DNA from: an uncultured Bacilli bacterium
GTDB taxonomy: Bacteria > Bacillota_I > Bacilli_A > RFN20 > CAG-449
NCBI GenBank assembly: GCA_947627505.1
Contig: CANQWG010000004.1
Span: forward strand, 1 to 61,212
Reading direction: 5' to 3'
DNA length: 61,212 nt
Below the pieces are notes generated by a model. The model saw only the letters and a program-made list of their open reading frames with translations. It searched no databases and was not told the DNA's origin. Shown here piece after piece: positions 5,288 to 59,995 of the stretch. The translations under genes were made by a program, and so were the position numbers. Position 1 is the stretch's first letter. Every line of letters begins with the position of its first letter.

Positions 5288-5321
5288 ATGGTTATTTTTT
5301 TACTTGATATACCAAAATACA

Positions 5322-5347
5322 ACTAAATATCTACTAAAATAATACTA
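5322..5347 (-). repeat. Degenerate copy of the phased ACTAA element
   Basis: ACTAAATATCTACTAAAATAATACTA matches 22 of 26 positions of 15831-15856. The plsY TAG stop (5345-5347) sits at the same repeat position as the stop in the 15.8-kb copy. Confidence 0.3.
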
Positions 5348-15613: not shown

Positions 15614-15820
15614 GACTAATTTAGGTCATAAATGGTAAAAGACGGATTTCGACGGCGTTTTTGATTATTTCGCATAATTACCATTATGTTAACCAATTTA
15701 AAAATAAATATTTATTTCTAGGCATTTTTAAACAATTGAAATCATTAATAAAATGCAATTTAAAAGCTCTTTTAATTTATTGTGAAAGTTTTCCACATAC
15801 CTTAAAAGAGCTTATTTTAA

Positions 15821-15856
15821 CTAATTAAATACTAATTATCTACTAATCTATTACTA
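15821..15856 (-). repeat. Phased ACTAA(T)x3 element, copy A
   Basis: TACTAATTATCTACTAATCTATTACT (15830-15855) is identical to 26570-26595, and the flanks extend the similarity. ACTAA starts at 15831, 15842 and 15853, an 11-bp phase. It overlaps the permease stop codon. Confidence 0.7.
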
Positions 15857-26551: not shown

Positions 26552-26560
26552 TCACTATTA

Positions 26561-26596
26561 CCAATTAATTACTAATTATCTACTAATCTATTACTT
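26561..26596 (-). repeat. Phased ACTAA(T)x3 element, copy B
   Basis: It fills almost the whole 43-nt xseB-dxs intergenic space. The 26-nt core is identical to copy A. Confidence 0.7.
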
Positions 26597-28071: not shown

Positions 28072-28472
28072 AATACTTTGTCCAAAACTGCATTTACAAG
28101 TGGACACCGGTCTCTTTCGATATATCTTTTAGCGAGATTCATCGCAATATCGATAGTTATCGCCTTTTCGACGGTCTCTCCATACTGACTTTCAGCGATT
28201 GCAACAACTAATATCGCTTTTAAAACATTATTTAAGCGATCAAATTTCCAATCTATGAGATTTTTAGAAATTAGGTCGACTATTTCGTCAATATGCAATA
28301 ACGCTTTAACCGCGACTTCGCGCGAAAAAAGCGGAATTTCCTCATATGAAGTTTTGTATGTGTTTTCCAAAGAATTGACAGGATTAAAATCAAATTTGTA
28401 TTCACGACAAAAAAAGTATTGATAAAGAACGATCATCAATTTTTCGTGTTCTTTGTTTCTTGTTAACACCAT
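28068..28472 (-). CDS. nusB: Transcription antitermination factor NusB
   Basis: 134 aa. W...DRL...LKAILVVAIAE...LVNAVLDKV is a NusB-like pattern, and it lies upstream of xseA as in Bacillus. Confidence 0.75.
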   Translation of the reverse strand: MVLTRNKEHEKLMIVLYQYFFCREYKFDFNPVNSLENTYKTSYEEIPLFSREVAVKALLHIDEIVDLISKNLIDWKFDRLNNVLKAILVVAIAESQYGETVEKAITIDIAMNLAKRYIERDRCPLVNAVLDKVL

Positions 28473-28667
28473 TTATATCACCTCACAAAACTATATTATA
28501 ACTCACATATTTATAATAAACAAATCAATCGTGCAAATTAGCGTAAATTTCGGCGTTTTTGCATGTATTCTAAGATATTTTTGAGCATTATATTAATTTA
28601 TTGCTTTTAATTATCTTATTTCAATTATCGTCTTTAGATATTCTTTAGCTTATCTTTTAATTGTATA

Positions 28668-29294
28668 TTATTCATAGAAGACCTCCATAAAATTTATAAC
28701 CTTATCTTTAATTCCTAGCTTTTCGGCATAGTTGGATAGTTTTACTAAATCCTTATCTCTTCTTTTTATATATTCTCTAACGCTAAACTTAACAAGTTCA
28801 AAATCCATTCTCTTTTTGGAACGGATAATATCACATATGCATCTTTCTATATCATAAACCCTAACCTTATTGCCCATAGGTGTTTTAACTTCACTGAGAC
28901 CTAATTCATAAATATCATTAGATACATAAAATACTTCATGTTCTTTTAAATGTTCGTTATTATAAGTCTTTTTTATAGTTATATCATATCTGCCATTGGG
29001 TGCTTTTAATGATAAACCATAGAAATAAAGTGCTGTCATATGAGAAAAAATAGCATTGGGCATGGTTAAATTAAAGATATAATAAGGGTCATCTATTTTA
29101 GAAGAATCGATATAAATGCCATTACCAACCCTTTCTACGATACCTTTTTTCCACATAGAATTGAGATACATTCTATGAATACCACAATTGTCTAATTCTT
29201 TTGAAGTGATATATCCATTATTTTTTTCCATTATCATTTCAATAATTTCAACCTTACTTTTTCCTATAAAATCGCTTTGATACATTTTTTCCAT
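28668..29294 (-). CDS. AbiEi-family (type IV TA antitoxin-like) protein, orphan
   Basis: The N-terminal winged-helix part (GYITSKELDNCGIHRMYLNSMWKKGIVERVGNGIY) and AIFSHMTALYFYGL are typical of the AbiEi/AbiGi family. I started it at ATG 29294 behind a GGAGA RBS. The region is AT-rich. Confidence 0.55.
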   Translation of the reverse strand: MEKMYQSDFIGKSKVEIIEMIMEKNNGYITSKELDNCGIHRMYLNSMWKKGIVERVGNGIYIDSSKIDDPYYIFNLTMPNAIFSHMTALYFYGLSLKAPNGRYDITIKKTYNNEHLKEHEVFYVSNDIYELGLSEVKTPMGNKVRVYDIERCICDIIRSKKRMDFELVKFSVREYIKRRDKDLVKLSNYAEKLGIKDKVINFMEVFYE

Positions 29295-29472
29295 ATTATT
29301 CTCCATGACAAATCTACTTATACAATAATATTTATCAGTAGTTTTGTCAAAATTATTCAATAAAATGATAATAATTACTCAAATAATGACAGACACAAGT
29401 TTAAAAATATGACTTTAAATATAAAGTAATAAATAAAATTTTTTTATTAAGGTGCTAAATGACAATGTATTT

Positions 29473-29505
29473 AAAAAAAAGAATGATAAGAAACGTATCA
29501 TTCTT
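29473..29505 (-). terminator. Rho-independent terminator of the 676-aa lipoprotein gene
   Basis: The minus strand reads AAGAATGATA-CGTTTCT-TATCATTCTT followed by a T8 run. Confidence 0.65.
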
Positions 29506-31508
29506 CAATCATAAATCAATTTGGTGTTATTAATAACGATATCGGCACTGAAAGGCGCTATAATCCGTCGATTATCGTTTGTACTTAGCACTCTAAAATG
29601 CAAGATTATACCATTTTCACACTCTACTTTGCTAAGTTCACTAAGATTAGGATACAACAAGGATTGCGATAAATTATTTAGTGTTAAGTTTTGTGTGCCC
29701 TTCTGTAGCGTATATTTCTTATATCCTTCTACATTGCCACCTTTTACGAAGTCTAGATACATCTCGACTTTCATATCATCTTCTATATTAAGAGAAATAG
29801 TAATCGCATAGTCGCGGATATTTTCAATTTCTTTTGACGCATGTATAGCAATGGTATCGTAGCAATTTTTATTCGATGAGATATCGCTTAGATGTGTCGC
29901 ACTATCAGCACTACTACGCGTAGAAACTAGATATACACTATCATCTGCATTCAAATTCCCCTCTATATCGGTATCAAATTTTTCATTTGCGACCGCGTCT
30001 ACTATAGCAGCTACTGCTTGAGATAGATTGTAGATATTTCGCATACCCGTCTGCTCATTTGGTGTAAATGGAGCACGCATATCTTTAAATGCCTTCACCC
30101 CGTCTGCGATATATCCCGAATCATTTTCGCCGTAATACAATAAATGAGCAGTTTCATAACGGTCACCATAAAAACCCTCAATAGAAAATTTAGATAAATA
30201 CGCCATAGACGACGTATAATCATCATCATTTACAAGCTTATTAAATTCATTATAATATGACTGATAAGTGGTATTATGCATTATATAGATATTTGCCGTA
30301 TCCATATTGCCATCTATTTCTGTATACACATCACCCAAACTATAACAATTACCACGGTTATCTGTAATAAATTCTGAGTCAATAAGTTGACAGGTCATCA
30401 TTCCACTAAGTTCAGCAATACTATAGCAATATCCACATGTATTACAAAACTCCTCATAACGCTCTTTAACGTCAGCAAAGGTTTCTTTGCTACGCTTGTC
30501 ATCTTTGATTAAATTGTCACCAACAACATATTTTCTGACAAATTCCTTGATATTATCAGCAAAATCTTGTGCATAATTTCCAAGATAGAATATTTTCTCT
30601 AGCAGTGCGTTGTACTCACTATTTACTGTAGAAATATCCGCGCTATAGGACGTGCACTCATTTGGCGCGTAACCCACTACAAGCTGTGCGATGACTAGTT
30701 TCATTCTCTCTTGTGCTGTGCCATCCGCAAAGTAGTCCGCCCATAGCCACTTGCGACTATCGTCTGTCGTCGTACCTATCTTTTTCTCACTTTCTAGTAT
30801 CGTATAATAATTCTCGCCATACATCGAGCCATATGGGATAGTGTAGTGCGATGTGATGTAATCATTTTTCTCACTATATGTGTCACGAGCGGTACGATTA
30901 TTTGCAAGGAATGCGGTAAGCACCATAGTTGACAGGTCGCACTCGTGTTGGTCGATATTGTTGTAATATTCATTCTGATAAAATACTACGCTGCCCCACT
31001 TTTGTGCAATCTCATCAAAACGTGTGACACCCGAGGACGAGATATTCTTGCCATCCTCGTCATAAAGGAAGACGTAGTACATACTGCCGTCTTGATGCAC
31101 CTCGTATTTTTTACCAAGCGATGTGCCCGACTCCCAACTATTGAATATTTTACCGTCGTATTCATAGGTGTAATTATTGCCATGACCGTAGATATTGTCT
31201 AGTCGACTGATGATGCCATTTGCAATGCTTCCTATCTGTCGATCGAGCAAATATTCAAAAGAACGATAGGTACCATCAAAATCCACGAAGGTTTGTTCAC
31301 TGATACGGCGTACTACAGTTGCCGATACTTCATCGGTAAAATAATTCTCGGCATAATGCGATGTAGCGCTGCTACTGTCGCTTGAATGCGGTTCAAAACT
31401 AGAATTATCAGTTAATACACCGCTAGTTGGGTCATCGTTTATTCCGCTACAACCGACCAATGTTGCAAGCACCATGATCGTCAAAAGATTTAAAGTCGTT
31501 TTTTTCAT
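29505..31508 (-). CDS. Large lipoprotein of unknown function
   Basis: MKKTTLNLLTIMVLATLVGCSG is a signal peptide plus lipobox, taken from ATG 31508. About 650 aa follow with no motif I recognise. Confidence 0.55.
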   Translation of the reverse strand: MKKTTLNLLTIMVLATLVGCSGINDDPTSGVLTDNSSFEPHSSDSSSATSHYAENYFTDEVSATVVRRISEQTFVDFDGTYRSFEYLLDRQIGSIANGIISRLDNIYGHGNNYTYEYDGKIFNSWESGTSLGKKYEVHQDGSMYYVFLYDEDGKNISSSGVTRFDEIAQKWGSVVFYQNEYYNNIDQHECDLSTMVLTAFLANNRTARDTYSEKNDYITSHYTIPYGSMYGENYYTILESEKKIGTTTDDSRKWLWADYFADGTAQERMKLVIAQLVVGYAPNECTSYSADISTVNSEYNALLEKIFYLGNYAQDFADNIKEFVRKYVVGDNLIKDDKRSKETFADVKERYEEFCNTCGYCYSIAELSGMMTCQLIDSEFITDNRGNCYSLGDVYTEIDGNMDTANIYIMHNTTYQSYYNEFNKLVNDDDYTSSMAYLSKFSIEGFYGDRYETAHLLYYGENDSGYIADGVKAFKDMRAPFTPNEQTGMRNIYNLSQAVAAIVDAVANEKFDTDIEGNLNADDSVYLVSTRSSADSATHLSDISSNKNCYDTIAIHASKEIENIRDYAITISLNIEDDMKVEMYLDFVKGGNVEGYKKYTLQKGTQNLTLNNLSQSLLYPNLSELSKVECENGIILHFRVLSTNDNRRIIAPFSADIVINNTKLIYD

Positions 31509-49803: not shown

Positions 49804-50268
49804 CTATTCATCGTAGTCGTCAAATTCATGTCTCTTTTTGCGTCTCTTTTTAAAGACCAAGAACGCGATAAGAGCCAAGATAACCCACAAACAGAGATAT
49901 GTGATTTCGTTGTTGATAATGTCAACGACAATTTGCGGTAAAGAAACAGATGACAATGAAGTTTTAATGAACTCGCAAATGATGGTGTTAACCACATCGA
50001 TTGGATGAGTTACAAGCGTAAGACCATAAGTGACATACGGCATATATCCATCGGTTTTACCAAAGAAATCTTTTAGTGCATCTAAATGAAGCACGAAATT
50101 TAAAATCGCCAAAAGCGCGATGAAATTGAAAAGTCCTGCAATCCAACTTCTAAAGCGACATACAAAGGATGAAAAGAAAATTGGAAGCAGCATCACGCCG
50201 ATGATGACTAAAGCTTGTAGAATATCAAGTGATTCAAACGGAAACACAACACCGAGAAGCATATTCAT
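49804..50268 (-). CDS. Small polytopic membrane protein, unknown function
   Basis: 154 aa with about 4 TM segments and a basic/acidic tail. It lies 67 nt downstream of the SMC-like gene. Confidence 0.45.
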   Translation of the reverse strand: MNMLLGVVFPFESLDILQALVIIGVMLLPIFFSSFVCRFRSWIAGLFNFIALLAILNFVLHLDALKDFFGKTDGYMPYVTYGLTLVTHPIDVVNTIICEFIKTSLSSVSLPQIVVDIINNEITYLCLWVILALIAFLVFKKRRKKRHEFDDYDE

Positions 50269-50335
50269 AATAATTTACCCACACTTTCATTTAGATTATA
50301 TTTTCTTTTAGCAATAAATGCAAGATATAAAATAT

Positions 50336-53300
50336 TTAAACACGGATTTCAAAGCGACCGACTTGAGAACGATTGTTATTTCTCGTCACGACCAAAGTTT
50401 CGTCGGCGATCTTCGAGATGTGTTGCACCTTATCTGGTGGTGCTGAAAGAATCACTTGAAGTCCGAATTTTTCAAGGATTGCAATTGCTTCGATAATTCT
50501 CGCGCTATCCATCTTTGAGAAAGCTTCGTCGAAGATCACAAGTCGTGTGCAATTAGAGGTGCTCTTACTACCATTGATACGATAAAGTTGCGAGAAAGAT
50601 GCCAAAATCGAAATATAGAACGGAGTCTGCGTCTCGCCCCCTGAAGCTTGATTGATCATGTAAGATAACGAATTGACGCGATCGCCTTTTTTCGAAAGTA
50701 AGTCAAACAACAGATAAGAACGATAATCGGTAAATTTAGCTACATTTTGTTCCAAAACCGCATTTTGATCGCGCGAATTAGAAACATCACCGATGGCTTT
50801 AAAGAGGCTATCCATCGTCTCTTTGTACTTTTCAAGATAAGTTTCATCATTGCCACTTGTCAAAAGCAGATCGTCCATAATCATGTTGTAGTAATCGAGA
50901 TATTCACTGCGTGGTTCGACGCGGAATTCATAGGTGTCTTCACCGAATTGCGAATCGCGAATCGCCTCATTTAGTTCCTCGATTCGGGCAATCGCCATAT
51001 TGATCGAAGTGTTAAGTTTATGAATAAAGTGATCTTTGAATTCTTTTGAAGCCTTTTCGTAAGCGTCTTGAATCTTTTCTTGATATTCCGGAAGTTTGAC
51101 GTCGCGGATGTTGATTAAATCGCGTTCGTAATCGTCATTGTTTTCGGCTTGTACATCGTAACTGAGGCGATAAGTGAGGACATAGTCGCGACGCAATTCA
51201 AACAAAGCCGCCTTCAGACTATTGATCTTATTTTGGGCTTTGATGTAAATTTCATCGTAACGTTCTCTTATCTGCGGTAATGAATCGCCAGTTTCCTCTT
51301 CGTTATGGAAAGTAACCATCGCCACATTGTTGACAAACTCTTGATCAAATTTTTCTTCTAGTTCTTTGAGCAAAGCAGAAGCAGTGTTCATTTCAAAAGG
51401 AATTTTTTCGTCATTGATATTTTGAATGGTGGCTTTTAAAGTACCCTTTTGCATTACCAATTCTTGAATCTCATTAGCGATATTTTCTAGATCGAGATTG
51501 ATCCGATTGATTTTCTCGTCGAGAACCGAAATTTCTGAAGAACCCGACTCTTCAAGTTCCGCTTCGTAAGTTTTTAAGTTACGGCGTAAACCTTCAAGAC
51601 TTTCAGCCTCATTTAAAGCAGCGGTGGCACTATTCAATTCGTTGTTGTTAATCACGTCTTGACCATTGACCTCTTGCAATAACGCGATCACCGTTCGATA
51701 AGTTTCGGCTAAATGTTCTTTTAAAGCCAGTTCTTCTTCGGTTTGCTTTAAACTCTCTTTTGAAATTTGGCGACCCAAAAGCGCGTATTTATAATTGCTT
51801 TCGGGAATCACAAATGAAGAGAAGTTTCGATAACCTTCACAGGTAGGAGTAATGCCACGACCTCTAGCACGAGCTTCGCTCAAATCGGCGCATTTGTAAA
51901 TGCGACCCATTAAGAAGTTGGTATAATCACGAGCCCCGTCATGGTCCGTTAAAATTTCTTCAGCCAAAGAATTGCGTTCCGCGATGAAATTTTGCTCATG
52001 TAATTTTTCACTGTCGACCAGCCCGGTTCGATAATAGTGATTGCGGCGCATGATTTCTGGTAAAATTCGATTGGCCGCATCGTAATACTCCTCTTCAACG
52101 AACATATTGAGTTTTTGCGAAGAGATAAAACCTTCGATAGCATTCACCCATTTTGGTGATTTGACATCGACCAAATCGGCGTAGATGTAAACTTTGATTT
52201 TTTTGCCATAATGATTGGAAAGCGCATTTTCGAGTTGATTGCGGACTTGAACTAATTGATAATCATAAAGTTTGCCGCCGATATCGCTATTAGCTTGTTG
52301 CTGTTTGGTATAATTGATATCTTGCACCAATGTCGCAAGATCTTTCTTCAAAGAAAAAGCCAATTCGCTACAGGCGCTTTTAAAAGCGATCGTCGCATCG
52401 CGGAAATCACCGATTACCTGCGGTTCGATATTTTCTTTCGTTTGAAGCACTTGGCGCAATTTGGAGGCAGTATCCCTAACATCTTTGCAAGCAGAAAGAA
52501 TCGCTTTAGAATCGATGCTTGACGTCAGTTGATCCTCTTTGAGACTTTCAAAGCAAGCTTCTACTTTATTCGCCAAATTATTAAATTCGTTGATATAGGA
52601 ACCGAATTTCTTTTGAATGTCGTTGATGCTTGCTTCAAGTCGTTCGATTTTCTCTTTGGTCCGCGTTCTTGAATTTTTCAAATCGGCGGTCAATTGATAA
52701 GCTCCGTTTCCAACTTTCGAAGCGATGTATTGTTCTTTTAAAGTGTTGAGTTCTTTGCTTTGATTTTCAAGTTCTTGAACTTCGCGATCGATTTCTTGAA
52801 GACGTTCCTTTGAAGCGGTGATATCATCGCGAAGCGTCTGTATCCGATTGAGATGCATTTGATAAGTCACACGTTTAGAAATGTAACTGGCTAGATTCAA
52901 TTCATCTTTTTTGCTAGCAAATTGATTGTAGACTTCTTGAATGTCTTCAAGTTTTTTGATTTTCACTTGCATAGCTTCCGCTTCAATTTCCAATTTTTTG
53001 TATTGGCGGATATTTTCCTGCATCACATCGATATTGATTTCGCTTGGAACATCACAAACATAATCGGTGATGAATTGTTCGATATTGGTGATCGGTTGAA
53101 AAGAGACTGCCTTTTTAAATAGCGAAAAATATTTATCGGACAAATTACCGAATTTCTTTTTGAGCAATTTTTGATATTGGGCGTTAGTTTCCGTAAAGAT
53201 AAAACGACCATCATAATTTTCTTTGAAGAATTCTAAAAGGGTCTCATATGACATCGGAACATCGTCAATCACGAAATTGTTGCTTGGGAATTCACTATCT

Positions 53301-53689
53301 AAAATGAAAAATTTGTGTTCTTCGCTACCATCGTCATAGACGTCAAAGACGATACCCATCGTGAAATCACAGTCTTCATAGTCATCGTGAAACTGCATCG
53401 CGATATAAGATGAAAAGCGACCGCTTCTTAAATAAGTGACACTCCCTTTTCCATCTCCCCCGGTTTGTCCCCGCAAGTAACTTTTCAAAGTACGACCGGA
53501 TTTTTCATTAGCGGCTTTGTTAAACGATCTTCCGGTAGTATCGCCAAGCAAAACCACTTGCATCGCATCGATGAGAGTCGATTTACCGGAAGCATTCTCA
53601 CCGGTCAAAAAGTTAACTTTACCGAACTCCATGGTTACATTTTGAAAATAATGCCAGTTAATTAGGCGCATTTTTGTTAATAATTTCAT
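50336..53689 (-). CDS. jetC: SMC-like ATPase, JetC/MksB-like
   Basis: 1117 aa. The N-terminal head has Walker A (LTGENASGKSTLIDA). A very long coiled-coil region rich in E/K/L/Q follows. The C-terminal head has SGGETQ (signature) and VIFDEAFSKMD (Walker B). Confidence 0.75.
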   Translation of the reverse strand: MKLLTKMRLINWHYFQNVTMEFGKVNFLTGENASGKSTLIDAMQVVLLGDTTGRSFNKAANEKSGRTLKSYLRGQTGGDGKGSVTYLRSGRFSSYIAMQFHDDYEDCDFTMGIVFDVYDDGSEEHKFFILDSEFPSNNFVIDDVPMSYETLLEFFKENYDGRFIFTETNAQYQKLLKKKFGNLSDKYFSLFKKAVSFQPITNIEQFITDYVCDVPSEINIDVMQENIRQYKKLEIEAEAMQVKIKKLEDIQEVYNQFASKKDELNLASYISKRVTYQMHLNRIQTLRDDITASKERLQEIDREVQELENQSKELNTLKEQYIASKVGNGAYQLTADLKNSRTRTKEKIERLEASINDIQKKFGSYINEFNNLANKVEACFESLKEDQLTSSIDSKAILSACKDVRDTASKLRQVLQTKENIEPQVIGDFRDATIAFKSACSELAFSLKKDLATLVQDINYTKQQQANSDIGGKLYDYQLVQVRNQLENALSNHYGKKIKVYIYADLVDVKSPKWVNAIEGFISSQKLNMFVEEEYYDAANRILPEIMRRNHYYRTGLVDSEKLHEQNFIAERNSLAEEILTDHDGARDYTNFLMGRIYKCADLSEARARGRGITPTCEGYRNFSSFVIPESNYKYALLGRQISKESLKQTEEELALKEHLAETYRTVIALLQEVNGQDVINNNELNSATAALNEAESLEGLRRNLKTYEAELEESGSSEISVLDEKINRINLDLENIANEIQELVMQKGTLKATIQNINDEKIPFEMNTASALLKELEEKFDQEFVNNVAMVTFHNEEETGDSLPQIRERYDEIYIKAQNKINSLKAALFELRRDYVLTYRLSYDVQAENNDDYERDLINIRDVKLPEYQEKIQDAYEKASKEFKDHFIHKLNTSINMAIARIEELNEAIRDSQFGEDTYEFRVEPRSEYLDYYNMIMDDLLLTSGNDETYLEKYKETMDSLFKAIGDVSNSRDQNAVLEQNVAKFTDYRSYLLFDLLSKKGDRVNSLSYMINQASGGETQTPFYISILASFSQLYRINGSKSTSNCTRLVIFDEAFSKMDSARIIEAIAILEKFGLQVILSAPPDKVQHISKIADETLVVTRNNNRSQVGRFEIRV

Positions 53690-53698
53690 AATGGCCTC

Positions 53699-54313
53699 CT
53701 AAAATTCTTCCCCTTCGAAGTTTTGAATATCTTCAAAGATTTTGTTGATTCTTTCATTGTCGATTACATAGAGAATCGATGGAAGAATATAAAATTGCAA
53801 ATTGCGATCGCGATAATCGCCGGAAATTCTAGCGATAATATTGTGCTGTTCCAAAAATCGGTAAGCAGTGGCAAAAGTAACCTGGGGAACCTTCTTATCA
53901 CTTCGCACTAGCGATTTGTCATTAAGAATTTTATTGACCTCAGATGCAGTAAAATATACTTCGGAGGTCGTTTGATTTTTTTCTTTTTCGCATTCATAGG
54001 CGTAACGTAAACAATAGATAATAAGCGACGTCATAAAATCGAGACGAATGCGATTATCTTGAAATTCATTGCTGATTATGATTACTCCAAGTCGAGAATC
54101 TTTTTCAACAATCCACCCCGTGTAAGCCAAATATTCGCGAATTAAATCGATGTTTCGTTCGACAAAATAATAATCGCGATTGGATTTTATAATTTTGCTA
54201 TGACGATCATAGTTTTCACGGAGTAAGAATGATTTAAGCATCAATTCGTTGACGATTCGCGCAAAATCGTCACGTTCATGTTCAGATAATTTGTTGTATG
54301 TTTCTTCGAACAT
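53699..54313 (-). CDS. jetB: JetB/MksE-like (DUF4194-like) subunit
   Basis: 204 aa, taken from ATG 54313 behind an AAGGGAG RBS. The pattern ARIVNELMLKSFLLRE...IREYLAYTGWIVEKDSRLGVI resembles DUF4194. It is sandwiched between the kleisin-like and SMC-like genes. Confidence 0.6.
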   Translation of the reverse strand: MFEETYNKLSEHERDDFARIVNELMLKSFLLRENYDRHSKIIKSNRDYYFVERNIDLIREYLAYTGWIVEKDSRLGVIIISNEFQDNRIRLDFMTSLIIYCLRYAYECEKEKNQTTSEVYFTASEVNKILNDKSLVRSDKKVPQVTFATAYRFLEQHNIIARISGDYRDRNLQFYILPSILYVIDNERINKIFEDIQNFEGEEF

Positions 54314-55745
54314 TCTTATTCTCCCTTCTTTCAAAAGTGTAGTTTGGCATCGAAAATTTTTCATTGACGAATTGGTCGATCGTCTTTTGATAATCGATGC
54401 TATAAAACGAATTGTAATCGTTGGATTTGACAGTACCAAGAATCAAATAGATAAAGTCATTGATGTTTTTAATATCGATTTCAGAGACCGTAACTTTATC
54501 GTTATCACCGAAAGCATCATCCATGAAATCGAGGACTTTATCGTCAGTAAACATCAAGTCTTCCTCATCGATTATCGAAGAGAAATCGTTGCTTTCGCTT
54601 TCTTCTTCGATCGTTAAAGGTGCAGTTTCAATGCGTTCACTGCGGTGAATCGGTTTTTGTAAACTATCAGCATCAAAATAACATTGACGAAAAAGCGTGA
54701 CCGAATTAGTGATATCGCGAATGATCGTCGGGTATGATTGTCCTTTTTCGTGACGTTCACCGGCTTCGGTCTTGGCAACCGCGAGAAAAATCGTCTCCAG
54801 TTTTCCTTTGATCGATTTATCATTGTTATTCAAATAAATCACTTTTTCAGCGCTCGCTTTAGTGTAAGCCGCGCGAGTCTTATCAATTTCATTCATTTCT
54901 AGCGATAAACGTGAATAAGTATCGCGGATATAGTTGATTTTATCGATAATTTGATTTTGAAGTTCCTCTAGTGTTGCTTCAGGTTGCTCGACTTTAGCTT
55001 GTTCAGCAATCTTTTCTAAAACACTTGGAGTAATCATCCATCGTTTAAGGATGATATTGATCGGTTCACTATAAAGAATTATCGAATCCGTAGTCTTTAA
55101 CGGGTGATATAAAGGATCCAAGACATCTTCTCGTGCAATATCAAAGTGCTGTCTTAATACATCGTTTGGTGTAAAAATCGTCGACAGTTGATTTTGAAAC
55201 ACGCGGATTGAATGATCTAATGTCGTCATTTGAAGCGAAAGATCTTTAGTGCGTGTCACAGCGTCATTCAATGCTTTATACATGTATTCGGGTTGTTCTT
55301 CATCGGCATTTTTCAATTCGATGTAAGTGGAATGAACGTTGCTTACGTAACGTGTCGAAGACGAATCGACGAATTCATAAATGATTTTAAGCAATGCTAC
55401 CGAATAACTGGGTACCAAAACATACTCGACTCCCGTTTTAAAATCAACATCAACCACAATCCATCCGGTATCGACCAAACGTCTAAAGACTAAATTGATT
55501 TTTGATTGTAAAGTGGGTTGAAAGATGACGTCGTCATCGACATCACCCTCTACCGAAACATCGAAAGTCTCCAAATCTTTATCGACTCGCCCCTTTAAAA
55601 GATCAATGTAGTCAGATTTACGGATTTTATTGCGATATATTGTAAGACAATCATATAATGCCACTAAAGCAACACCATAGATATTCTTATTTTTAGATGA
55701 CAAAATCGAGAAGAAATTCTCAGGAATTTTAGCAAATAAATTCAT
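54282..55745 (-). CDS. jetA: JetA/MksF-like kleisin candidate
   Basis: 487 aa and first gene of the three-gene operon (AGGAGG RBS). Assignment rests on size and position, plus an acidic linker before the C-terminal domain. I saw no unambiguous motif. Confidence 0.45.
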   Translation of the reverse strand: MNLFAKIPENFFSILSSKNKNIYGVALVALYDCLTIYRNKIRKSDYIDLLKGRVDKDLETFDVSVEGDVDDDVIFQPTLQSKINLVFRRLVDTGWIVVDVDFKTGVEYVLVPSYSVALLKIIYEFVDSSSTRYVSNVHSTYIELKNADEEQPEYMYKALNDAVTRTKDLSLQMTTLDHSIRVFQNQLSTIFTPNDVLRQHFDIAREDVLDPLYHPLKTTDSIILYSEPINIILKRWMITPSVLEKIAEQAKVEQPEATLEELQNQIIDKINYIRDTYSRLSLEMNEIDKTRAAYTKASAEKVIYLNNNDKSIKGKLETIFLAVAKTEAGERHEKGQSYPTIIRDITNSVTLFRQCYFDADSLQKPIHRSERIETAPLTIEEESESNDFSSIIDEEDLMFTDDKVLDFMDDAFGDNDKVTVSEIDIKNINDFIYLILGTVKSNDYNSFYSIDYQKTIDQFVNEKFSMPNYTFERRENKNVRRNIQQII

Positions 55746-55795
55746 GTTAAACCTCCTGTAATTATCATATCAAAAAAAAAAAACTAAAGATAGTC

Positions 55796-55836
55796 TAAAA
55801 AGTAATTTATTTTGCAATTTTCGATAGTTATTTTAA
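55796..55836. repeat. 41-bp direct repeat, left copy
   Basis: TAAAAAGTAATTTATTTTGCAATTTTCGATAGTTATTTTAA is identical to 59465-59505. It lies 51-91 nt upstream of the jetA ATG. Confidence 0.95.
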
Positions 55837-56150
55837 CGGCTTAATTAAAATAAAAAAATCAATTTTTAATTTGCCCACCAATAGTAGATTGATCCAATCA
55901 ATATTAAAACAATTTTACTCATAAAATTAAGAAAAAAAATATTATCGACGTATAAATCACCAACGTATTAATTGTGACCACAACAAGGATATTTTCGCAT
56001 ATCAAAACAAAAGTTATCTTTAATGTCTTTCACAGAAAAATGACATTAAAAAAACTTACAACCATCGACGTTATATGCATTAATATGATTGTAATAAATA
56101 ATGTGCTTTAAATTTCAAATCATACTTCAATATAGTTTTGCAAGAAAAAA

Positions 56151-57518
56151 TTAAATTCGTTCTTTTAAATTAACGGCTATCAACGCTTCTTCCAATTTAT
56201 CTTTAATACTTTTTATAAAACCTTCCTGCCCTAGAGAAACTATTTCATCATAAGTCCATTTATACTCAAGCAGTATTTCTGGTATGACAAGTACTGGATT
56301 TTTTTTACCCGTCAAATGCTCCTTTAGTGATAAAAAAGTTTGTTCATCAATCACTTTATCGTCATATAATTTTCGATAGAGATCTATCGCCTCTTGTGGC
56401 GTGCAAGTCTTTATCAAATTAATATTGTTTTTCCAATATGCAATATATTGATCTATAGAAGAAACAATCTTATGGTCATATGATGTATATGATTTTTTAA
56501 TGTTTCTTCCTCGTTTATACTGGAGGTGTAAAGTTTCACACAAAAAATCAATATGATCCTTTGAAAGTTCCAATCCATTAATTTCGCTCATCATTGAACG
56601 CGCACTTGATTGTTTAGGACCAAAAGCTAAAGATAAACTTATTGAATCACTTTTTATTATCAGATTAACTTCTCCAAGCCATTTATAATTTACTTTGCAT
56701 CTCCAAGTATTATACCTTCTTTTATCTATTGCGCCATTATGAACTTGTGAAAGAATTTTTTCTCCAAAAGGAATTGTTAATTTTTCTCTAATGCTTTCAT
56801 CTGATTGACAAGCAACAATAAAATTATCCAAACCAATATATCCTAAGATGGTCAAGTATTCGACAAATTGATTAGTGGTGAACGTATCAAGTGTAAGAAA
56901 CAAATCAACTATTTCGCTGTATTTTTTATAAATAACATTACTTTTGTTTTCCGTTATTAACAAACTTTTTTCAATGTGATTATTAATTTGATCGGGATTT
57001 AGATTGTGTAATTTGTTTTCTAAGGCAATAATGTATTGAGGATTTTCATCAATATAAATCAAAATCCATCCATCCGGAATCGAGCCATCTTTTTTGTTTT
57101 GTAGATAATCTTTAACTTCGTTTTCAGTTGCTTCCTTACATTCTCTTTCATCTTTTATTGTTATAGATAATTCATTGTAAATTGCTTTGTACAATTCTTT
57201 TTTGTTTTTAGTATCTTGACCACTAAATCCCCAACATTTACCCGTGGGACTAAATCCAAACATTATTCTATTATCGATAGGGAAACTTTTAATTCGATCT
57301 TCAGCTGGTTTTTTTTGAAGATAACAATCAACTTTTAAATTTCCCTCTTTCAAATCAATTGAAAACAATTTAGTAATAACTTTTCGCTTCAAATCATCAG
57401 ATAAACTGTCAATCGAATTAATAAAAGCTTTTGTTATATTATTTTCCAAATGTGGTTTTCCCTCATATTGCCAAAAAATATTCAAATGTGGATCTCTAAA
57501 ACTTTTATAATTTAACAT
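56151..57518 (-). CDS. PD-(D/E)xK-type nuclease-motif protein with a C-terminal domain of unknown function
   Basis: 455 aa with a GAGGAGA RBS. The N-terminal half shows a helix with conserved E (HLENNITKAF), then SIPDGWILIY...(13 aa)...IIALENKLH. That gives the PD...ExK arrangement of restriction-endonuclease-fold enzymes. No motif is recognised in residues ~200-455. Confidence 0.45.
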   Translation of the reverse strand: MLNYKSFRDPHLNIFWQYEGKPHLENNITKAFINSIDSLSDDLKRKVITKLFSIDLKEGNLKVDCYLQKKPAEDRIKSFPIDNRIMFGFSPTGKCWGFSGQDTKNKKELYKAIYNELSITIKDERECKEATENEVKDYLQNKKDGSIPDGWILIYIDENPQYIIALENKLHNLNPDQINNHIEKSLLITENKSNVIYKKYSEIVDLFLTLDTFTTNQFVEYLTILGYIGLDNFIVACQSDESIREKLTIPFGEKILSQVHNGAIDKRRYNTWRCKVNYKWLGEVNLIIKSDSISLSLAFGPKQSSARSMMSEINGLELSKDHIDFLCETLHLQYKRGRNIKKSYTSYDHKIVSSIDQYIAYWKNNINLIKTCTPQEAIDLYRKLYDDKVIDEQTFLSLKEHLTGKKNPVLVIPEILLEYKWTYDEIVSLGQEGFIKSIKDKLEEALIAVNLKERI

Positions 57519-57703
57519 TTTTTTCTCCTCTATTATTTTTGCGGGTTTTGAAGCATATTATTTTTCTAATAGATTTTTATCTAATTTCTAAAAATCATTT
57601 ATCAAATACGCAATATAATAAGTACCCTTAAATTTTTTATCATTATTTTACATTTGCTTTCTATTGCATCTTTTTATTTTGCTAGAATTGCAAACAATAC
57701 AAT

Positions 57704-57847
57704 TCATTTTTTATTACCTTTGACATATGGTAAATTTGAAGTTCTAACCGCTCTTTTTACAAGTTTTGACTGTTCTGCCAAATATTTGTTTCTATCCATG
57801 GGTCTATTAAGACTATCAATAAAAGCATTTGCAAGTTTTTTAAGCAT
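57704..57847 (-). CDS. Unlisted 47-aa basic ORF between the WYL gene and the nuclease-like gene
   Basis: MLKKLANAFIDSLNRPMDRNKYLAEQSKLVKRAVRTSNLPYVKGNKK, preceded by AAGGAG with an 8-nt spacer before the ATG. Confidence 0.45.
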   Translation of the reverse strand: MLKKLANAFIDSLNRPMDRNKYLAEQSKLVKRAVRTSNLPYVKGNKK

Positions 57848-57897
57848 AAATAAGCTCCTTGTTCATAATTTCATCTCTAAACGCAGCAAATTTTTAT

Positions 57898-58890
57898 TTA
57901 CTTTTTATATTTTTCTATTTGCGATGTTAGATGGTTTATAAATTTATCGATAAGTGATTTAGGTTCTAATAATTTAAATTCATCCCCGTATTGATTAATC
58001 CAATAAAACAATGCAGTTTCATCGCATTTCACTTTCGCATAGAGTTTACCATCTTTCTCGAAAATTTTTGCCTTTTTACCAAACCAATCATTTATATACT
58101 GAATTGCCCAAGATTTTTCTATAAGAATTAGAGCGTCAACAACTTCATTTGCAAACAAATAAATATGTTCATTTAAATATTTACTGATATCAAAATTTTC
58201 TATTCCATTGAGCGTATTTAACGGCTTAATTGTCCATTCTTCTTCGATTTTGGTTTCTATCATATAATCAATACGAAATGTCTGCAATGGTCTATATTTT
58301 TCTCGATAGTTGCATAATAAATAATATCTTCCAAAATTATTAATCAAAAAATACGGAGACACGATATATCGATATCCATTTCTTCGTACACAAGGATTAC
58401 CATTTTTGTCATAAGTCAAATACTTAAATGATATGCGCTTATTAGCTTTAATGGCATCCTCTATCAACTCAATATTATAGAAAATATCATGATTAGTTGT
58501 TCTTATAAGTTCATCACTTTTATAGATGTACGAGTAATTTTTTCTTTGATATTTACTTAAACACGAATTAACTTTCTGTGATAAATTTATAGCTTGCTTC
58601 CCTGTTATAGCCTTTGAAGAAAAAATTGCATCATTAATAAATCTCACTTCAGCAAGATCAAAGGTCCTAGAAAGCAGAGCGAAGCCACCTTTCGAACCTC
58701 TAACAATATCATAGTCAAGTTCTTCTAACAAATTCAAAGAAGAGCCTATACTTTTTCTCTCTAATTCGATTCCATATTGACGAGAAATTATACTCGCTAT
58801 TTCCATTTGTGTTAAATAATGTTCTTCATCGGTAAATTCATGTAAAACCTTAAGAACTAGAAGTATTGAGCTCTTTTTATTTTGCAGCAT
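57898..58890 (-). CDS. HTH + WYL-domain transcriptional regulator (BrxR/CapW-like architecture)
   Basis: An N-terminal winged HTH (ILLVLKVLHEFTDEEHYLTQMEIASII), a central WYL-type segment (RYIVSPYFLINNFGRYYLLCNY...LQTFRIDYM) and a C-terminal WCX-like extension. Confidence 0.7.
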   Translation of the reverse strand: MLQNKKSSILLVLKVLHEFTDEEHYLTQMEIASIISRQYGIELERKSIGSSLNLLEELDYDIVRGSKGGFALLSRTFDLAEVRFINDAIFSSKAITGKQAINLSQKVNSCLSKYQRKNYSYIYKSDELIRTTNHDIFYNIELIEDAIKANKRISFKYLTYDKNGNPCVRRNGYRYIVSPYFLINNFGRYYLLCNYREKYRPLQTFRIDYMIETKIEEEWTIKPLNTLNGIENFDISKYLNEHIYLFANEVVDALILIEKSWAIQYINDWFGKKAKIFEKDGKLYAKVKCDETALFYWINQYGDEFKLLEPKSLIDKFINHLTSQIEKYKK

Positions 58891-58955
58891 ACATTAACTC
58901 TCTTTTTTGTTTTTTAACTTAAAAAAATATTAATAAAAAATTAATGTCGCAAAAA

Positions 58956-59141
58956 TTATTTGTTCAAGAGCATTGTTAGAAGATTTCCTTGACCAATTTT
59001 ACGGCCAGAGGCATCTCTTGTGACCTTGCCATCAAATTCACCTAACTTGCGTCCACTAGCGTCTCTAATGATTTGTCTCGTTCCGTAATCTTGGATTTCA
59101 CCAATTTTACGACCAGTTCTGTCTCTTAAAACTTGATTCAT
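58956..59141 (-). CDS. 61-aa tandem-repeat miniprotein
   Basis: Three copies of RD(R/A)(T/S)GRK(I/L)G: RDRTGRKIGE, RDASGRKLGE, RDASGRKIGQ. A strong AAGGAGAG RBS lies upstream. Confidence 0.5.
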   Translation of the reverse strand: MNQVLRDRTGRKIGEIQDYGTRQIIRDASGRKLGEFDGKVTRDASGRKIGQGNLLTMLLNK

Positions 59142-59161
59142 TTTTTACTCTCCTTTTTTTA

Positions 59162-59290
59162 TTATTTTATCATATCAAGTGTCCGATTTTTAGTACTTGT
59201 AATACTCCTATCAGTTATATTCATTAATAAACCATCATCAACTAATGCATGCCTAAAGTAAACATAATTAAAAGCGAGGTACTTTTTCAT
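59162..59290 (-). CDS. Possible 42-aa ORF at the head of the cassette operon
   Basis: MKKYLAFNYVYFRHALVDDGLLMNITDRSITSTKNRTLDMIK. It has a weak GGAAG RBS and ends 20 nt before the 61-aa ORF. Confidence 0.2.
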   Translation of the reverse strand: MKKYLAFNYVYFRHALVDDGLLMNITDRSITSTKNRTLDMIK

Positions 59291-59464
59291 TTTTTTACTT
59301 CCATAATTAATTAATGTCAATAAGAATGCTTTTTGTATATAAATTATAATTTATGCCAAATATAAATGGTTGTTTTAATAGTAAAAATATTAATTTATAT
59401 TTTCGTGCTTCATTAAACATTTAAGTTTATGAATTTTTAAAAATATTAAATTCCGTAATAGAGG

Positions 59465-59505
59465 TAAAAAGTAATTTATTTTGCAATTTTCGATAGTTAT
59501 TTTAA
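59465..59505. repeat. 41-bp direct repeat, right copy
   Basis: Identical to 55796-55836. Confidence 0.95.
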
Positions 59506-59548
59506 TGAGGCATTTTTTGTGATAAACTCATAGTGAGAGGTCAACAAA

Positions 59549-59995
59549 ATGAAACTTAAACCATATATAAAAATACCTTTGATTTCCAATAGTGTAATTA
59601 CTTTATTTGCTTTGATTATCGTCTTTTTAATTTACTTTGACGTTCATCATATGACGATGCCAATCGAAGGTCTTATTTTCATCGGTGCGGTTCTTGTTGT
59701 CGCCATCATTTACACTATTTTATTAATCGTTAAAACTGAATACTTATTAATGGATGACACCTTTACTTACAAAGCCATCTTCAAAAGCATGACTTACGAT
59801 TATAAAGATGTGATTTTTATCGCCGATCAACATGCCATTAAAGGACATCACTTGACGATTTATTTTTACGATGGTCGTTCCCTTGCATTAGTAACCGACA
59901 AAGAAAACACTCTCGGTCAAGAGTTGAAAAAAAGATGCCCTCAAACGATCGACGAAACGGAATTTCATAATCGTTATCCAGGCATCAAATTATAA
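59549..59995 (+). CDS. Membrane protein of unknown function
   Basis: 148 aa with two N-terminal TM segments plus a soluble tail. GAGAGG RBS. Confidence 0.5.
   Translation: MKLKPYIKIPLISNSVITLFALIIVFLIYFDVHHMTMPIEGLIFIGAVLVVAIIYTILLIVKTEYLLMDDTFTYKAIFKSMTYDYKDVIFIADQHAIKGHHLTIYFYDGRSLALVTDKENTLGQELKKRCPQTIDETEFHNRYPGIKL

What the first reader, a model, noticed from the sequence alone, without database searches (positions are those of the whole stretch)
55796..59505. Perfect 41-bp direct repeats bracket a 3.7-kb AT-rich cassette that has no recombinase
TAAAAAGTAATTTATTTTGCAATTTTCGATAGTTATTTTAA occurs twice in the same orientation, at 55796-55836 and 59465-59505 (41 of 41 identical, 3669 bp apart). 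The sequences outside the two copies are unrelated to each other. Between them lie only the cassette genes and long non-coding AT-rich spacers. This geometry fits site-specific or homology-mediated insertion into the jetA / 59549-gene intergenic region with duplication of an att-like core. However, no integrase, transposase or relaxase is present. If mobile, the element would have to be moved in trans, or exchanged as a cassette by recombination between the repeats.
Basis: seen in the sequence. Interest (0 to 1): 0.8.

Follow-up and report, generated by a model that had tools for sequence, protein, structure and literature searches.

The report
Duplicated insertion site flanking defence-like cassette
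The two identical 41-base repeats are one piece of the host's own promoter-region DNA, duplicated when foreign DNA was inserted between two divergent genes; the insert now holds a small regulator-controlled, defence-like gene module with no mobility gene of its own, which makes this a good but not extraordinary example of a gene-swapping hotspot.

Summary
The 41-mer occurs exactly twice in the window, at 55796-55836 and 59465-59505, where none is expected by chance. Its 30-nt core is absent from three public collections.

The repeat is host DNA, not cassette DNA. It lies between the divergent core promoters of jetA and the 148-aa gene. A more distant relative (L037) has the site unoccupied, with 136 bp between the two genes. 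Collapsing the window's two copies into one gives 134 bp and the same 90-nt spacing between the two -10 boxes. So DNA was inserted here with an exact 41-bp duplication.

Three closer lineages carry a BspA-type LRR gene at the same place instead. They have an intact left copy, and two of them have a decayed right copy. The window's insert shares its outermost 19 nt on the left and about 80 nt on the right with those LRR inserts. Only about 55856-59384 is truly foreign (28% GC).

The cargo is a conserved module: a 61-aa protein, a WYL/WCX regulator, a 47-aa protein and an uncharacterised 455-aa protein. It is a candidate defence system without a recombinase.

The enzyme that made the duplication is unresolved. 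It could be a recombinase acting in trans, host recombination, or later gene conversion. Interest is moderate.

The parts
55796..55836 (.). Left copy (L) of the 41-bp repeat. It is native host DNA lying about 39 to 79 nt upstream of the inferred jetA transcription start.
   Evidence: Exact match. The same sequence sits at the same position in relatives that lack the cassette: L021 41/41, L015 37/41, L027 36/41.
59465..59505 (.). Right copy (R) of the 41-bp repeat. Its last 6 nt (TTTTAA) lie where the -35 element of the 148-aa gene promoter would be.
   Evidence: Exact match. L021 and L027 have a decayed copy at the homologous position (31/41 matches with 3 gaps), which is the best match in their whole 1.2-kb insert. 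The distance from the conserved right-end block to the end of R is 56 nt in both the window and L027 (my count from those coordinates).
55837..55855 (.). Left end of the insert, shared with the LRR-type inserts of relatives (CGGCTTAATTAAAA-TAAAA).
   Evidence: blastn homology to L021, L026 and L027 runs through L and stops at window 55855 in all three. The alignment to L021 is 18/19 identical, directly after L.
55856..59384 (.). Truly foreign DNA of about 3.5 kb at 28% GC, carrying the four-gene WYL module.
   Evidence: No homology to the LRR-type alleles. GC is 0.280 against 0.384 for jetABC. The closest protein homologues are only 56-58% identical. There is no match in plasmid or phage records.
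59385..59464 (.). Right end of the insert. The block 59385-59449 is about 83% identical, with indels, to the equivalent block of the LRR-type inserts. The last 15 nt are only loosely similar.
   Evidence: Local alignment scores are 66 (L027) and 53 (L021), and 0 of 200 shuffles reach either score. Alignment shown. The motif TTTATSAATTTT(N)AAAAATATTAA is found only at this hotspot among the fetched loci.
58956..59141 (-). 61-aa protein with three internal RDxxGRKxGE-like repeats. It is the first gene of the module.
   Evidence: 56% identical to the 61-aa gene that precedes the WYL gene in L008. Weak Bflower_2 hit below the Pfam threshold. Internal repeats seen.
57898..58890 (-). WYL-domain transcription regulator of 330 aa, with an N-terminal winged-helix-like region, a WYL domain and a WCX domain.
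   Evidence: Pfam WYL 6.1e-08. WCX 2.8e-04, which is just under the Pfam cut-off. PADLOC WYL model 1.1e-24. 56% identical to the regulator next to the 455-aa homologue in L008.
57704..57847 (-). 47-aa ORF between the regulator gene and the 455-aa gene.
   Evidence: Called as a gene in L001. 44% identical over 32 aa to a 47-aa ORF in the related module of L011.
56151..57518 (-). 455-aa protein of an uncharacterised family, the presumed effector of the module.
   Evidence: 79 homologues, none named. No Pfam, PADLOC, NCBIfam, PHROGs or PDB sequence hit. Invariant P148-D149 and E167-x-K169. Confident model with pLDDT 92.9, but no PDB or BFVD structural neighbour at E<0.001.
55764..55772 (-). Inferred extended -10 box of jetA (TGATATGAT).
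   Evidence: Read from the sequence. Conserved as ATCATATC on the + strand in L021, L027 and the empty-site relative L037. That it acts as a promoter is an inference.
59520..59528 (+). Inferred extended -10 box of the 148-aa gene (TGATAAACT).
   Evidence: TGnTAAACT is conserved in the window, L015, L021, L027 and L037. That it acts as a promoter is an inference.
54282..55745 (-). jetA, the left-flank gene. jetB (53699-54313) and jetC (50336-53689) follow it. No jetD is present.
   Evidence: Pfam JetA 1.1e-75, JetB/DUF4194, and SMC-type JetC. Downstream of jetC come a 154-aa membrane-like ORF and a CBAH hydrolase gene.
59549..59995 (+). 148-aa membrane-like protein gene, the right-flank gene, transcribed divergently from jetA.
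   Evidence: ORF. Only three homologue clusters, all from this clade. It lies directly next to jetA in the empty-site relative L037.

Best explanation
The two 41-mers are the two copies of one host target sequence, duplicated when DNA was inserted into the short divergent promoter region between jetA and the 148-aa gene.

Shown:
- The ancestral or unoccupied form is a 134-136 bp intergenic region with a single copy of this sequence.
- The occupied form carries an insert bracketed by the duplicated 41 bp, so each flanking gene keeps its own upstream DNA.
- The site is a cargo hotspot. Three related lineages hold a BspA-type LRR surface-protein gene there. This strain holds a foreign, AT-rich, four-gene WYL-regulator module instead.
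- The outermost ends of the two kinds of insert are homologous.

Inferred:
- The perfect right-hand copy was made, or re-made, recently. An old untouched copy would have decayed, as it did in the LRR-type alleles.
- The most economical reading is a fresh insertion-linked duplication of an element that keeps conserved ends and swaps its cargo.
- The element is non-autonomous. It must be moved by a recombinase encoded elsewhere or by host recombination.

The cargo most likely works like other WYL (BrxR/CapW)-controlled defence modules. The regulator would repress the operon until a stress or DNA-damage signal releases it, and the 455-aa protein would then act as the effector. No terminator is predicted between the module and jetA, so read-through into jetABC is possible.
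For: - Repeat: it is exact, unique in the window and not expected by chance.
- Empty site: in L037 the acyltransferase gene, the 145-aa gene and jetA are adjacent with 136 bp between the last two. The window with its two copies collapsed to one gives 134 bp.
- Spacing: the distance from the jetA -10 box (ATCATATC) to the 148-aa-gene -10 box (TAAACTC) is 90 nt in L037. After collapsing L..R it is 90, 90 and 89 nt in the window, L021 and L027. A single diverged counterpart of the 41-mer is recognisable in L037.
- Host origin of the repeat: L is present at the same place next to jetA in L021 (41/41), L015 (37/41) and L027 (36/41), none of which has the cassette.
- Alternative cargo: LRR_5 genes of 179, 904 and 193 aa occupy the site in those lineages.
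- Decayed right copy: it lies at the homologous position in L021 and L027.
- Shared insert ends.
- Foreign core: 28% GC.
- Recency: L differs by 4-5 of 41 nt between species and the decayed copy by about 24%, while the window's L and R differ by 0 of 41.
- Real junctions: an independent assembly spans both.
- No mobility gene: none in the cassette or within about 10 kb on either side.
- Module conservation: the 61-aa, WYL, 47-aa and roughly 450-aa genes recur together in unrelated genomes, in neighbourhoods rich in defence genes and mobile elements.
- Analogy: WYL regulators of this type are known to co-localise with and repress defence systems (PMC9122601, PMC9122588, PMC11662680).
Against: - The only empty site is in a fairly distant relative (JetA 77% aa, flanks 70-75% nt). 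Its counterpart of the 41-mer is poorly conserved. No empty site was found within the species.
- The foreign DNA does not abut the repeats. 19 nt on the left and about 80 nt on the right are shared with the LRR-type insert. The left junction carries the same local variant (AACGGCTT) as the conspecific LRR-type strain L021. This fits cargo replacement inside an older insert at least as well as a fresh insertion.
- No terminal inverted repeats.
- No recombinase or second element using this sequence was found anywhere.
- No known transposition system makes a 41-bp target duplication (my own knowledge).
- The defence role of the cargo is inferred only from gene neighbourhood. The 455-aa protein has no family or structural match.
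Confidence: 0.6

Rival explanations
1. The duplication is old and the cargo was swapped later. A single ancient insertion of the LRR-bearing DNA duplicated the 41-mer. In this lineage the LRR gene was later replaced by the WYL cassette, through homologous or illegitimate recombination inside the conserved insert ends. The right copy was re-homogenised to the left copy by gene conversion or repair synthesis templated by L. On this view the perfect identity is a by-product and the cassette never moved as a repeat-bounded unit.
For: - The insert ends inside the repeats are homologous between the WYL-type and LRR-type alleles.
- R and the decayed copy are positional homologues, each ending 56 nt after the conserved right-end block.
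- The left junction shares the variant AACGGCTT with the conspecific strain L021.
- The cassette is found in other genomes without flanking repeats.
Against: - Gene conversion would have to act between 41-bp sequences 3.7 kb apart whose older form was only about 76% alike with indels. It would also have to cover all 41 nt and nothing more. That is mechanistically unlikely (my own knowledge of minimal homology requirements).
- The window's right end is about 17% diverged from the L021 and L027 right ends, although the coding flanks are 96-99% identical to L021. Extra import events are therefore needed.
Confidence: 0.25
2. The 41-mer is a regulatory module, an operator or upstream promoter element, kept identical by selection. 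One regulator, for example the cassette's WYL protein, would then control both the cassette and jetABC.
For: - Both copies lie upstream of minus-strand operons, 51 nt before jetA and about 320 nt before the 61-aa gene.
- CapW/BrxR-type regulators are reported to be associated with Wadjet systems (PMC11662680).
Against: - The 41-mer is host DNA present next to jetA in strains without the WYL gene. It is absent from related cassettes elsewhere.
- It has no clear dyad symmetry (reading of the sequence).
- Between species it changes as fast as the surrounding DNA: 88-90% identity against 93-94% for the flanks.
- Selection does not require 41/41 identity.
Confidence: 0.05
3. The structure is an assembly artefact, or an ordinary dispersed repeat or transposon footprint.
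For: Short-k (k=31) Logan contigs break inside the 41-mer.
Against: - Breaks at k=31 are what a true 41-bp repeat produces.
- A metaSPAdes contig spans both copies and both junctions.
- The 41-mer has only two copies in the window, and its 30-nt core has none in GTDB genomes, JGI metagenomes or IMG/VR.
- There are no inverted terminal repeats and no transposase.
Confidence: 0.03

Closest known systems
CIMEs (cis-mobilizable elements): integrated elements that have lost their integration and transfer genes but keep attL and attR (defined in PMC5704250)
   Same: A small chromosomal insert is bracketed by identical direct repeats of the target. It has no recombinase of its own. A relative has an unoccupied site with one copy. 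Movement would need a recombinase supplied in trans.
   Different: There are no remnants of integrase, relaxase or conjugation genes. No cognate ICE or IME that uses this site is known. The target is a divergent promoter region rather than a tRNA gene or the 3' end of a gene. At 3.7 kb the insert is very small. Its outer ends are shared with a different cargo.
Defence-system hotspots between conserved core genes (for example the E. coli pan-genome hotspots, PMC10121019)
   Same: The flanking genes are conserved, while occupancy and cargo vary between strains (empty, LRR gene, defence-like module). The cargo is compositionally foreign.
   Different: The published hotspots were defined for islands of at least ten genes, mostly carried by recognisable mobile elements. 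Here the cargo is one to four genes, no mobile-element gene is present, and a precise 41-bp duplication marks the site.
BrxR/CapW-type WYL regulators paired with defence operons (PMC9122601, PMC9122589, PMC9122588, PMC11662680)
   Same: The regulator has WYL and WCX domains behind an N-terminal DNA-binding region. It is encoded directly upstream of, and co-oriented with, a variable effector. It sits in defence-island-like neighbourhoods, here next to a jetABC operon.
   Different: The partner 455-aa protein belongs to no described defence family. Two small conserved ORFs (61 aa and 47 aa) travel with the pair. Repression, the inducing signal and any anti-phage activity are untested.
Target-site duplications of transposons and casposons, and repeat duplication by Cas1-type integrases
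   Same: Host sequence is duplicated exactly on both sides of the inserted DNA, as staggered cuts followed by fill-in would produce.
   Different: Known transposon and casposon duplications are about 2-15 bp (my own knowledge), whereas this one is 41 bp. There are no terminal inverted repeats, and no transposase or Cas1 nearby.

Membership tests
CIME / att-flanked non-autonomous integrative element | Identical direct repeats (attL/attR) bracket the element | tested here: met
   41/41 identity at 55796-55836 and 59465-59505.
CIME / att-flanked non-autonomous integrative element | An unoccupied site (attB) with a single copy exists in relatives | tested here: met
   L037 has 136 bp between the 145-aa gene and jetA. 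The window with its copies collapsed gives 134 bp. The spacing between the two -10 boxes is 90 nt in both. The relative is distant and its single copy is diverged.
CIME / att-flanked non-autonomous integrative element | Derived from an ICE or IME: remnants of integration or transfer genes, or a cognate element using the same att site | tested here: not met
   No such domains in the insert. The 30-nt core of the repeat is absent from GTDB genomes, JGI metagenomes and IMG/VR. The cassette DNA is absent from plasmid and phage records.
CIME / att-flanked non-autonomous integrative element | Excision to a circle and mobilisation in trans | not testable with these tools
   This needs read-level or PCR data from the cassette-bearing samples (ERR10663710-13).
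Transposon / insertion sequence | Terminal inverted repeats and a transposase; short target duplication | tested here: not met
   No inverted repeats at the ends of the insert. No transposase. A 41-bp duplication exceeds the known range (my own knowledge).
IMEX (elements integrated by host Xer recombinases at dif) | Flanking repeats are dif-like sites | tested here: not met
   The 41-mer has at least 14 mismatches of 28-31 to the B. subtilis, E. coli and streptococcal dif sequences. A dif-like site lies elsewhere, at 15667-15694.
BrxR/CapW-type WYL-regulated defence module | Regulator with wHTH-WYL-WCX architecture | tested here: met
   Pfam WYL 6.1e-08. WCX 2.8e-04, at 21.6 bits just under the 23.9-bit cut-off. 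PADLOC WYL 1.1e-24. The N-terminal HTH region was judged by eye only.
BrxR/CapW-type WYL-regulated defence module | Regulator gene directly upstream of and co-oriented with the genes it controls, with conserved pairing | tested here: met
   A WYL gene directly precedes the roughly 450-aa gene in L008-L014, which represent three homologues of 41-58% identity. The pairing is absent for two distant homologues of 30-38% identity.
BrxR/CapW-type WYL-regulated defence module | Partner genes form a known defence system / protection against phage is shown | tested here: not met
   No PADLOC, Pfam, NCBIfam or PHROGs family for the 455-aa, 61-aa or 47-aa proteins. Function could not be tested.
Wadjet (JetABCD) for the neighbouring operon | JetA, JetB and JetC together with the JetD nuclease | tested here: not met
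   JetA, JetB and JetC are present. No JetD is present: jetC is followed by a 154-aa ORF and a CBAH gene here and in all relatives.
PD-(D/E)xK nuclease (for the 455-aa protein) | Catalytic D...(D/E)xK motif on the characteristic fold | tested here: inconclusive
   Invariant P148-D149 and E167-x-K169 lie on a beta-hairpin of the model. Foldseek finds no nuclease, or any other structure, at E<0.001.

The most novel reading that the evidence does not exclude
The jetA / 148-aa-gene site is the dedicated docking site of a family of recombinase-less cassettes. Members would have conserved ends and exchangeable cargo (an LRR surface protein, or a WYL defence-like module). An as yet unidentified enzyme acting in trans would insert them and make, or carry, a 41-bp duplication. 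That is far longer than any transposon target duplication and is not linked to a tRNA gene or to dif. The cargo itself would be a new WYL-controlled defence system whose 455-aa effector has a fold without known relatives.
Probability: 0.15. Interest if true: 0.7.

Novelty: new variant of a known kind. Interest (0 to 1): 0.45.

Why it matters
This locus shows all three states of a small gene-swapping hotspot: an empty site, an old insert with a decayed repeat, and a new insert with a perfect repeat. No mobility gene is present in any of them. That makes it a tractable case for asking how defence genes move between strains without recognisable mobile elements. It also flags an uncharacterised four-gene WYL-regulated module, with about 80 homologues of its 455-aa protein in gut and other metagenomes, as a candidate defence system. 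Finally, it shows that the neighbouring 'Wadjet' operon lacks its nuclease throughout this clade.

Tried and rejected
- Dispersed repeat: rejected. There are two copies in the window, and the 30-nt core has none in GTDB genomes, JGI metagenomes or IMG/VR.
- dif / Xer site: rejected. The 41-mer has at least 14 mismatches to dif consensus sequences.
- Terminal inverted repeats at the insert ends: none found.
- Flanking repeats as a property of the cassette family: rejected. Related modules in L008, L010, L011 and L012 have none.
- Known RNA in the spacers: none in Rfam at E<=1.
- Sigma-70 promoter inside the 41-mer: no convincing -35/-10 pair on either strand (reading of the sequence).
- Plasmid or phage carrier of the cassette: no DNA match.
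- Older decayed copy of the 41-mer inside the right insert end (59378-59401): not significant, since 132 of 500 shuffles reach the score.
- Decayed right copy in L015: not significant as a local alignment, although the spacing argument places a remnant ending at L015 position 9957.
- R carries species-specific derived variants of L: withdrawn. The 'CGAT' variant is also in the outgroup L037 and is therefore ancestral.
- Nuclease fold for the 455-aa protein: not confirmed by PDB or BFVD fold searches or by PDB profile search.
- More relatives: the JGI metagenome scan with JetA found none. More distant jetABC loci (53% identity) are in a different genomic context and say nothing about this site.

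Full report
**1. Observation**

The 41-mer TAAAAAGTAATTTATTTTGCAATTTTCGATAGTTATTTTAA is present at 55796-55836 and 59465-59505, both on the + strand. Allowing three mismatches finds no other copy, and shuffled sequence gives no match. It is the only perfect long repeat family in the window.

The interval between the copies is AT-rich. GC is 26-29% in 1-kb windows against roughly 38-40% around it. For 55856-59384 it is 28.0%, against 38.4% for jetABC.

An independent metaSPAdes contig from sample ERZ27249483 (L001) reads through both copies and both junctions. It matches the window except for one base in a poly-A run. Short-k Logan contigs break inside the 41-mer, as expected for a real repeat longer than k. 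The structure is real.

**2. What lies between the copies**

All genes are on the minus strand, like jetABC:
- a 61-aa protein (59141..58956)
- a 330-aa WYL/WCX regulator (58890..57898)
- a 47-aa ORF (57847..57704)
- a 455-aa protein (57518..56151)

Only the regulator has family hits: Pfam WYL, WCX just under its cut-off, and a PADLOC WYL model at 1.1e-24. NCBIfam and PHROGs add nothing useful. No integrase, transposase or relaxase domain is present. The insert ends have no inverted repeats, and Rfam finds no known RNA.

The left flank is jetA-jetB-jetC without jetD. The right flank is a 148-aa membrane-like gene transcribed divergently, followed by an acyltransferase gene.

**3. Relatives at the same locus**

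Exact-protein look-ups and one genome scan gave four other versions of the locus.

- (a) The same strain in other samples, always with the cassette (L001, L004-L007).
- (b) A conspecific strain (L021/L029). Its left flank is 98.95% identical and its right flank 96%. It has a 179-aa BspA-type LRR gene between jetA and the 148-aa gene.
- (c) Two neighbouring species-level MAGs from rabbit gut. These are L015=L026 (Lapin-005 bin97) and L027 (Lapin-002 bin95), with 93-94% nt identity to the window. Their LRR genes at this place are 904 aa and 193 aa.
- (d) A more distant relative (L037; JetA 77% aa, flanks 70-75% nt). Here the 145-aa gene and jetA are adjacent, separated by 136 bp with no cargo.

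**4. The 41-mer is host DNA and was a single-copy site**

The left copy is found at the same position, 51 nt upstream of the jetA start codon, in the lineages that lack the cassette. Identity is 41/41 in L021, 37/41 in L015 and 36/41 in L027.

Joining the window's jetA-to-L segment to the segment that follows R gives a 134-bp 'virtual empty site'. This aligns colinearly with the 136-bp intergenic region of L037.

Two conserved boxes anchor the comparison:
- ATCATATC is the reverse complement of an extended -10-like TGATATGAT in front of jetA.
- TAAACTC is part of TGnTAAACT in front of the 148-aa gene.

The start-to-start distance between them is 90 nt in L037. After collapsing L..R to one copy it is 90, 90 and 89 nt in the window, L021 and L027. 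L037 has one diverged counterpart of the 41-mer between the boxes.

So L and R descend from one ancestral sequence, and the insert is bracketed by an exact 41-bp duplication of it. The duplicated segment is the DNA between the two divergent core promoters. Each flanking gene therefore keeps its own upstream region. That these boxes are promoters is my inference from the conserved motifs, not a measurement.

**5. The foreign DNA does not fill the space between the repeats**

blastn homology between the window and all three LRR-type alleles continues through L and stops at 55855. The 19 nt after L are 18/19 identical to L021.

On the right, window 59385-59449 is homologous to the block that precedes the decayed right copy in L021 and L027. 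Identity is about 83% with indels, and 0 of 200 shuffles reach the scores. None of this DNA is in the empty site of L037.

L021 and L027 also carry, exactly where the window has R, a decayed full-length copy of the 41-mer (31/41 with three gaps). It is the best match in their 1.2-kb inserts, reached by 11/300 and 3/300 shuffles respectively. The distance from the shared right-end block to the end of the copy is 56 nt in both the window and L027.

In summary, the LRR-type and WYL-type inserts share their outer ends and their bracketing repeats, and differ in the cargo. Only about 55856-59384 is foreign.

**6. Age of the perfect copy**

Between species, L has changed at 4-5 of 41 positions. The decayed right copy differs from L by about 24% with indels, and it is nearly the same in L021 and L027, so that decay predates their split.

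The window's right insert end is itself about 17% diverged from that of L021 and L027. Yet the coding flanks of the window and L021 are 96-99% identical.

An untouched ancient R that stayed 41/41 identical to L over such a time is not credible. R was either made afresh or re-copied from L recently.

I withdrew one earlier argument. The 'CGAT' variant shared by L and R is also present in the outgroup L037, so it is ancestral and does not date the copy.

**7. Mechanism**

Shown: insertion with exact duplication of a 41-bp host segment, a hotspot with three states, shared insert ends, and no recombinase in the insert or within about 10 kb on either side.

The only recombinase seen in the window is a XerC/D-like protein at 18945-19838. 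It lies close to a dif-like site at 15667-15694, at the GC-skew and gene-orientation switch. The 41-mer is not dif-like.

My preferred reading, at about 0.6 including its hedges, is that the repeats are an insertion scar of a non-autonomous element that keeps its ends and swaps its cargo. It would be moved by a function supplied in trans or by host recombination. The perfect copy would reflect a recent insertion or re-insertion.

The main rival, at about 0.25, is one ancient insertion followed by replacement of the LRR gene inside the conserved ends and gene conversion of R by L. It explains the shared ends and the shared AACGGCTT variant at the left junction with L021. It needs an unlikely conversion between short, diverged repeats.

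A regulatory-duplication reading and an artefact reading are weak, for the reasons given under the rival explanations.

I cannot tell whether the enzyme is a site-specific recombinase, whether staggered breaks were filled in, or whether RecA-type recombination with a circular intermediate was used.

**8. The cargo**

The 455-aa protein has 79 homologues. In three homologues of 41-58% identity, a WYL gene directly precedes it, overlapping it by 4 bp. A 61-aa gene lies upstream in L008-L010, and L011 has 59-aa and 47-aa ORFs upstream.

Conservation across the module:
- The 61-aa proteins of the window and L008 are 56% identical.
- The regulators are 56% identical.
- The 47-aa ORFs of the window and L011 are 44% identical over 32 aa.

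The neighbourhoods are rich in defence and mobile-element genes: HipA, Schlafen/AlbA_2, DUF4143 ATPases, type I restriction, serine recombinases and IS elements. Two distant homologues lack the regulator and sit beside a SIR2 gene or an FtsH-like AAA/M41 protease gene.

The family alignment has invariant P148-D149 and E167-x-K169, which looks like a PD-(D/E)xK motif. The AlphaFold model is confident (pLDDT 92.9). It has no PDB or BFVD neighbour at E<0.001, and profile searches of PDB sequences find nothing. The nuclease idea therefore remains a motif-level guess.

By analogy with BrxR and CapW (PMC9122601, PMC9122589, PMC9122588, PMC11662680), the regulator would repress the module until a DNA-damage or single-stranded-DNA signal releases it. 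This is inference.

The simple scan predicts no terminator between the 455-aa gene and jetA, so read-through into jetABC is possible.

**9. Comparison with known systems**

The geometry works like a CIME, an att-flanked element without recombination genes (PMC5704250), or like a small strain-variable defence hotspot (PMC10121019). It fails the CIME criterion of descent from an ICE or IME, and no cognate element is known. It is not a transposon, not an IMEX, and not part of a complete Wadjet system. The cargo fits the BrxR/CapW-regulated pattern, but its effector belongs to no described family.

**10. Verdict**

Two of its proposed tests, an empty site and different cargo, came out positive. 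However, the repeat is host promoter-region DNA, the cassette does not reach the repeats, and the mechanism is open.

It is a new variant of a known kind, a repeat-flanked non-autonomous islet at a hotspot. Interest is moderate at 0.45. It would be raised by evidence of ongoing excision, or by a demonstrated defence function of the module.

Noticed in passing
window 49804-55745; also L015, L021, L037, L040-L044: The jetABC operon has no jetD. It is followed by a conserved membrane-like ORF of about 150 aa in every relative examined. These include 53%-identical homologues that sit in a different housekeeping context, after relA and a pseudouridine synthase gene. This looks more like a nuclease-less MksBEF-type condensin than a Wadjet defence system.
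   Followed up: partly
window 15667-15694 and 18945-19838: Cumulative GC skew peaks and gene orientation switches from + to - at about 15.7 kb. A dif-like sequence (ATTTCGCATAATTACCATTATGTTAACC) lies there, and a XerC/D-type tyrosine recombinase gene is 3 kb away. The window probably spans the replication terminus.
   Followed up: partly
window 55772-55783: A run of 12 A lies between the left 41-mer and the jetA -10 box. It is 11 A in contig L001 and 12 A in contig L004 from the same sample, and only 7-8 A in the neighbouring species. This could be sequencing noise or slipped-strand length variation in the jetA promoter region.
   Followed up: partly
window 55762-55773 and 59167-59178: The same 12-mer TTATCATATCAA (TTGATATGATAA on the minus strand, an extended -10-like motif) lies just upstream of jetA and just upstream of the 61-aa gene of the cassette.
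   Followed up: no
window 55832-55846 and 58217-58231: An exact 15-nt match (TTTAACGGCTTAATT) links the junction of the left 41-mer with the insert end to a site inside the WYL gene. It is probably chance, since 15 of 100 shuffles reach the alignment score, but it could be a microhomology used in recombination.
   Followed up: partly
window 28000-30000: A second AT-rich islet (about 29.5% GC) holds an AbiEi_4-type antitoxin-like gene (28668-29360) and a 134-aa ORF. It may be another small acquired defence or toxin-antitoxin locus.
   Followed up: no
window 15820-15855 and 26560-26595 (weaker copy at 5311-5346): A 36-nt intergenic repeat built of TACTAAT-like units (ACTAATTAAATACTAATTATCTACTAATCTATTACT) occurs twice at 94% identity, 10.7 kb apart. 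Its function is unknown.
   Followed up: no
window 58956-59141: The 61-aa cassette protein consists of three tandem RDxxGRKxGE-like units and gives a weak hit to a 'five-fold beta-flower' family. It is conserved with the WYL module in other genomes, so it is probably a functional part of the system.
   Followed up: partly
L011 9443-10678; L035 7576-8838; L036 4119-5381: Homologues of the 455-aa protein are repeatedly followed by a gene of about 410-420 aa encoding an FtsH-like protein (AAA + peptidase M41). This may be an alternative partner in this family.
   Followed up: no
L015 7098-9812; L021 5896-6435; L027 6989-7570: The alternative cargo, a BspA-type LRR lipoprotein-like gene, varies from 179 to 904 aa between close lineages. 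This suggests repeat-mediated expansion or contraction of a surface protein at the same hotspot.
   Followed up: partly
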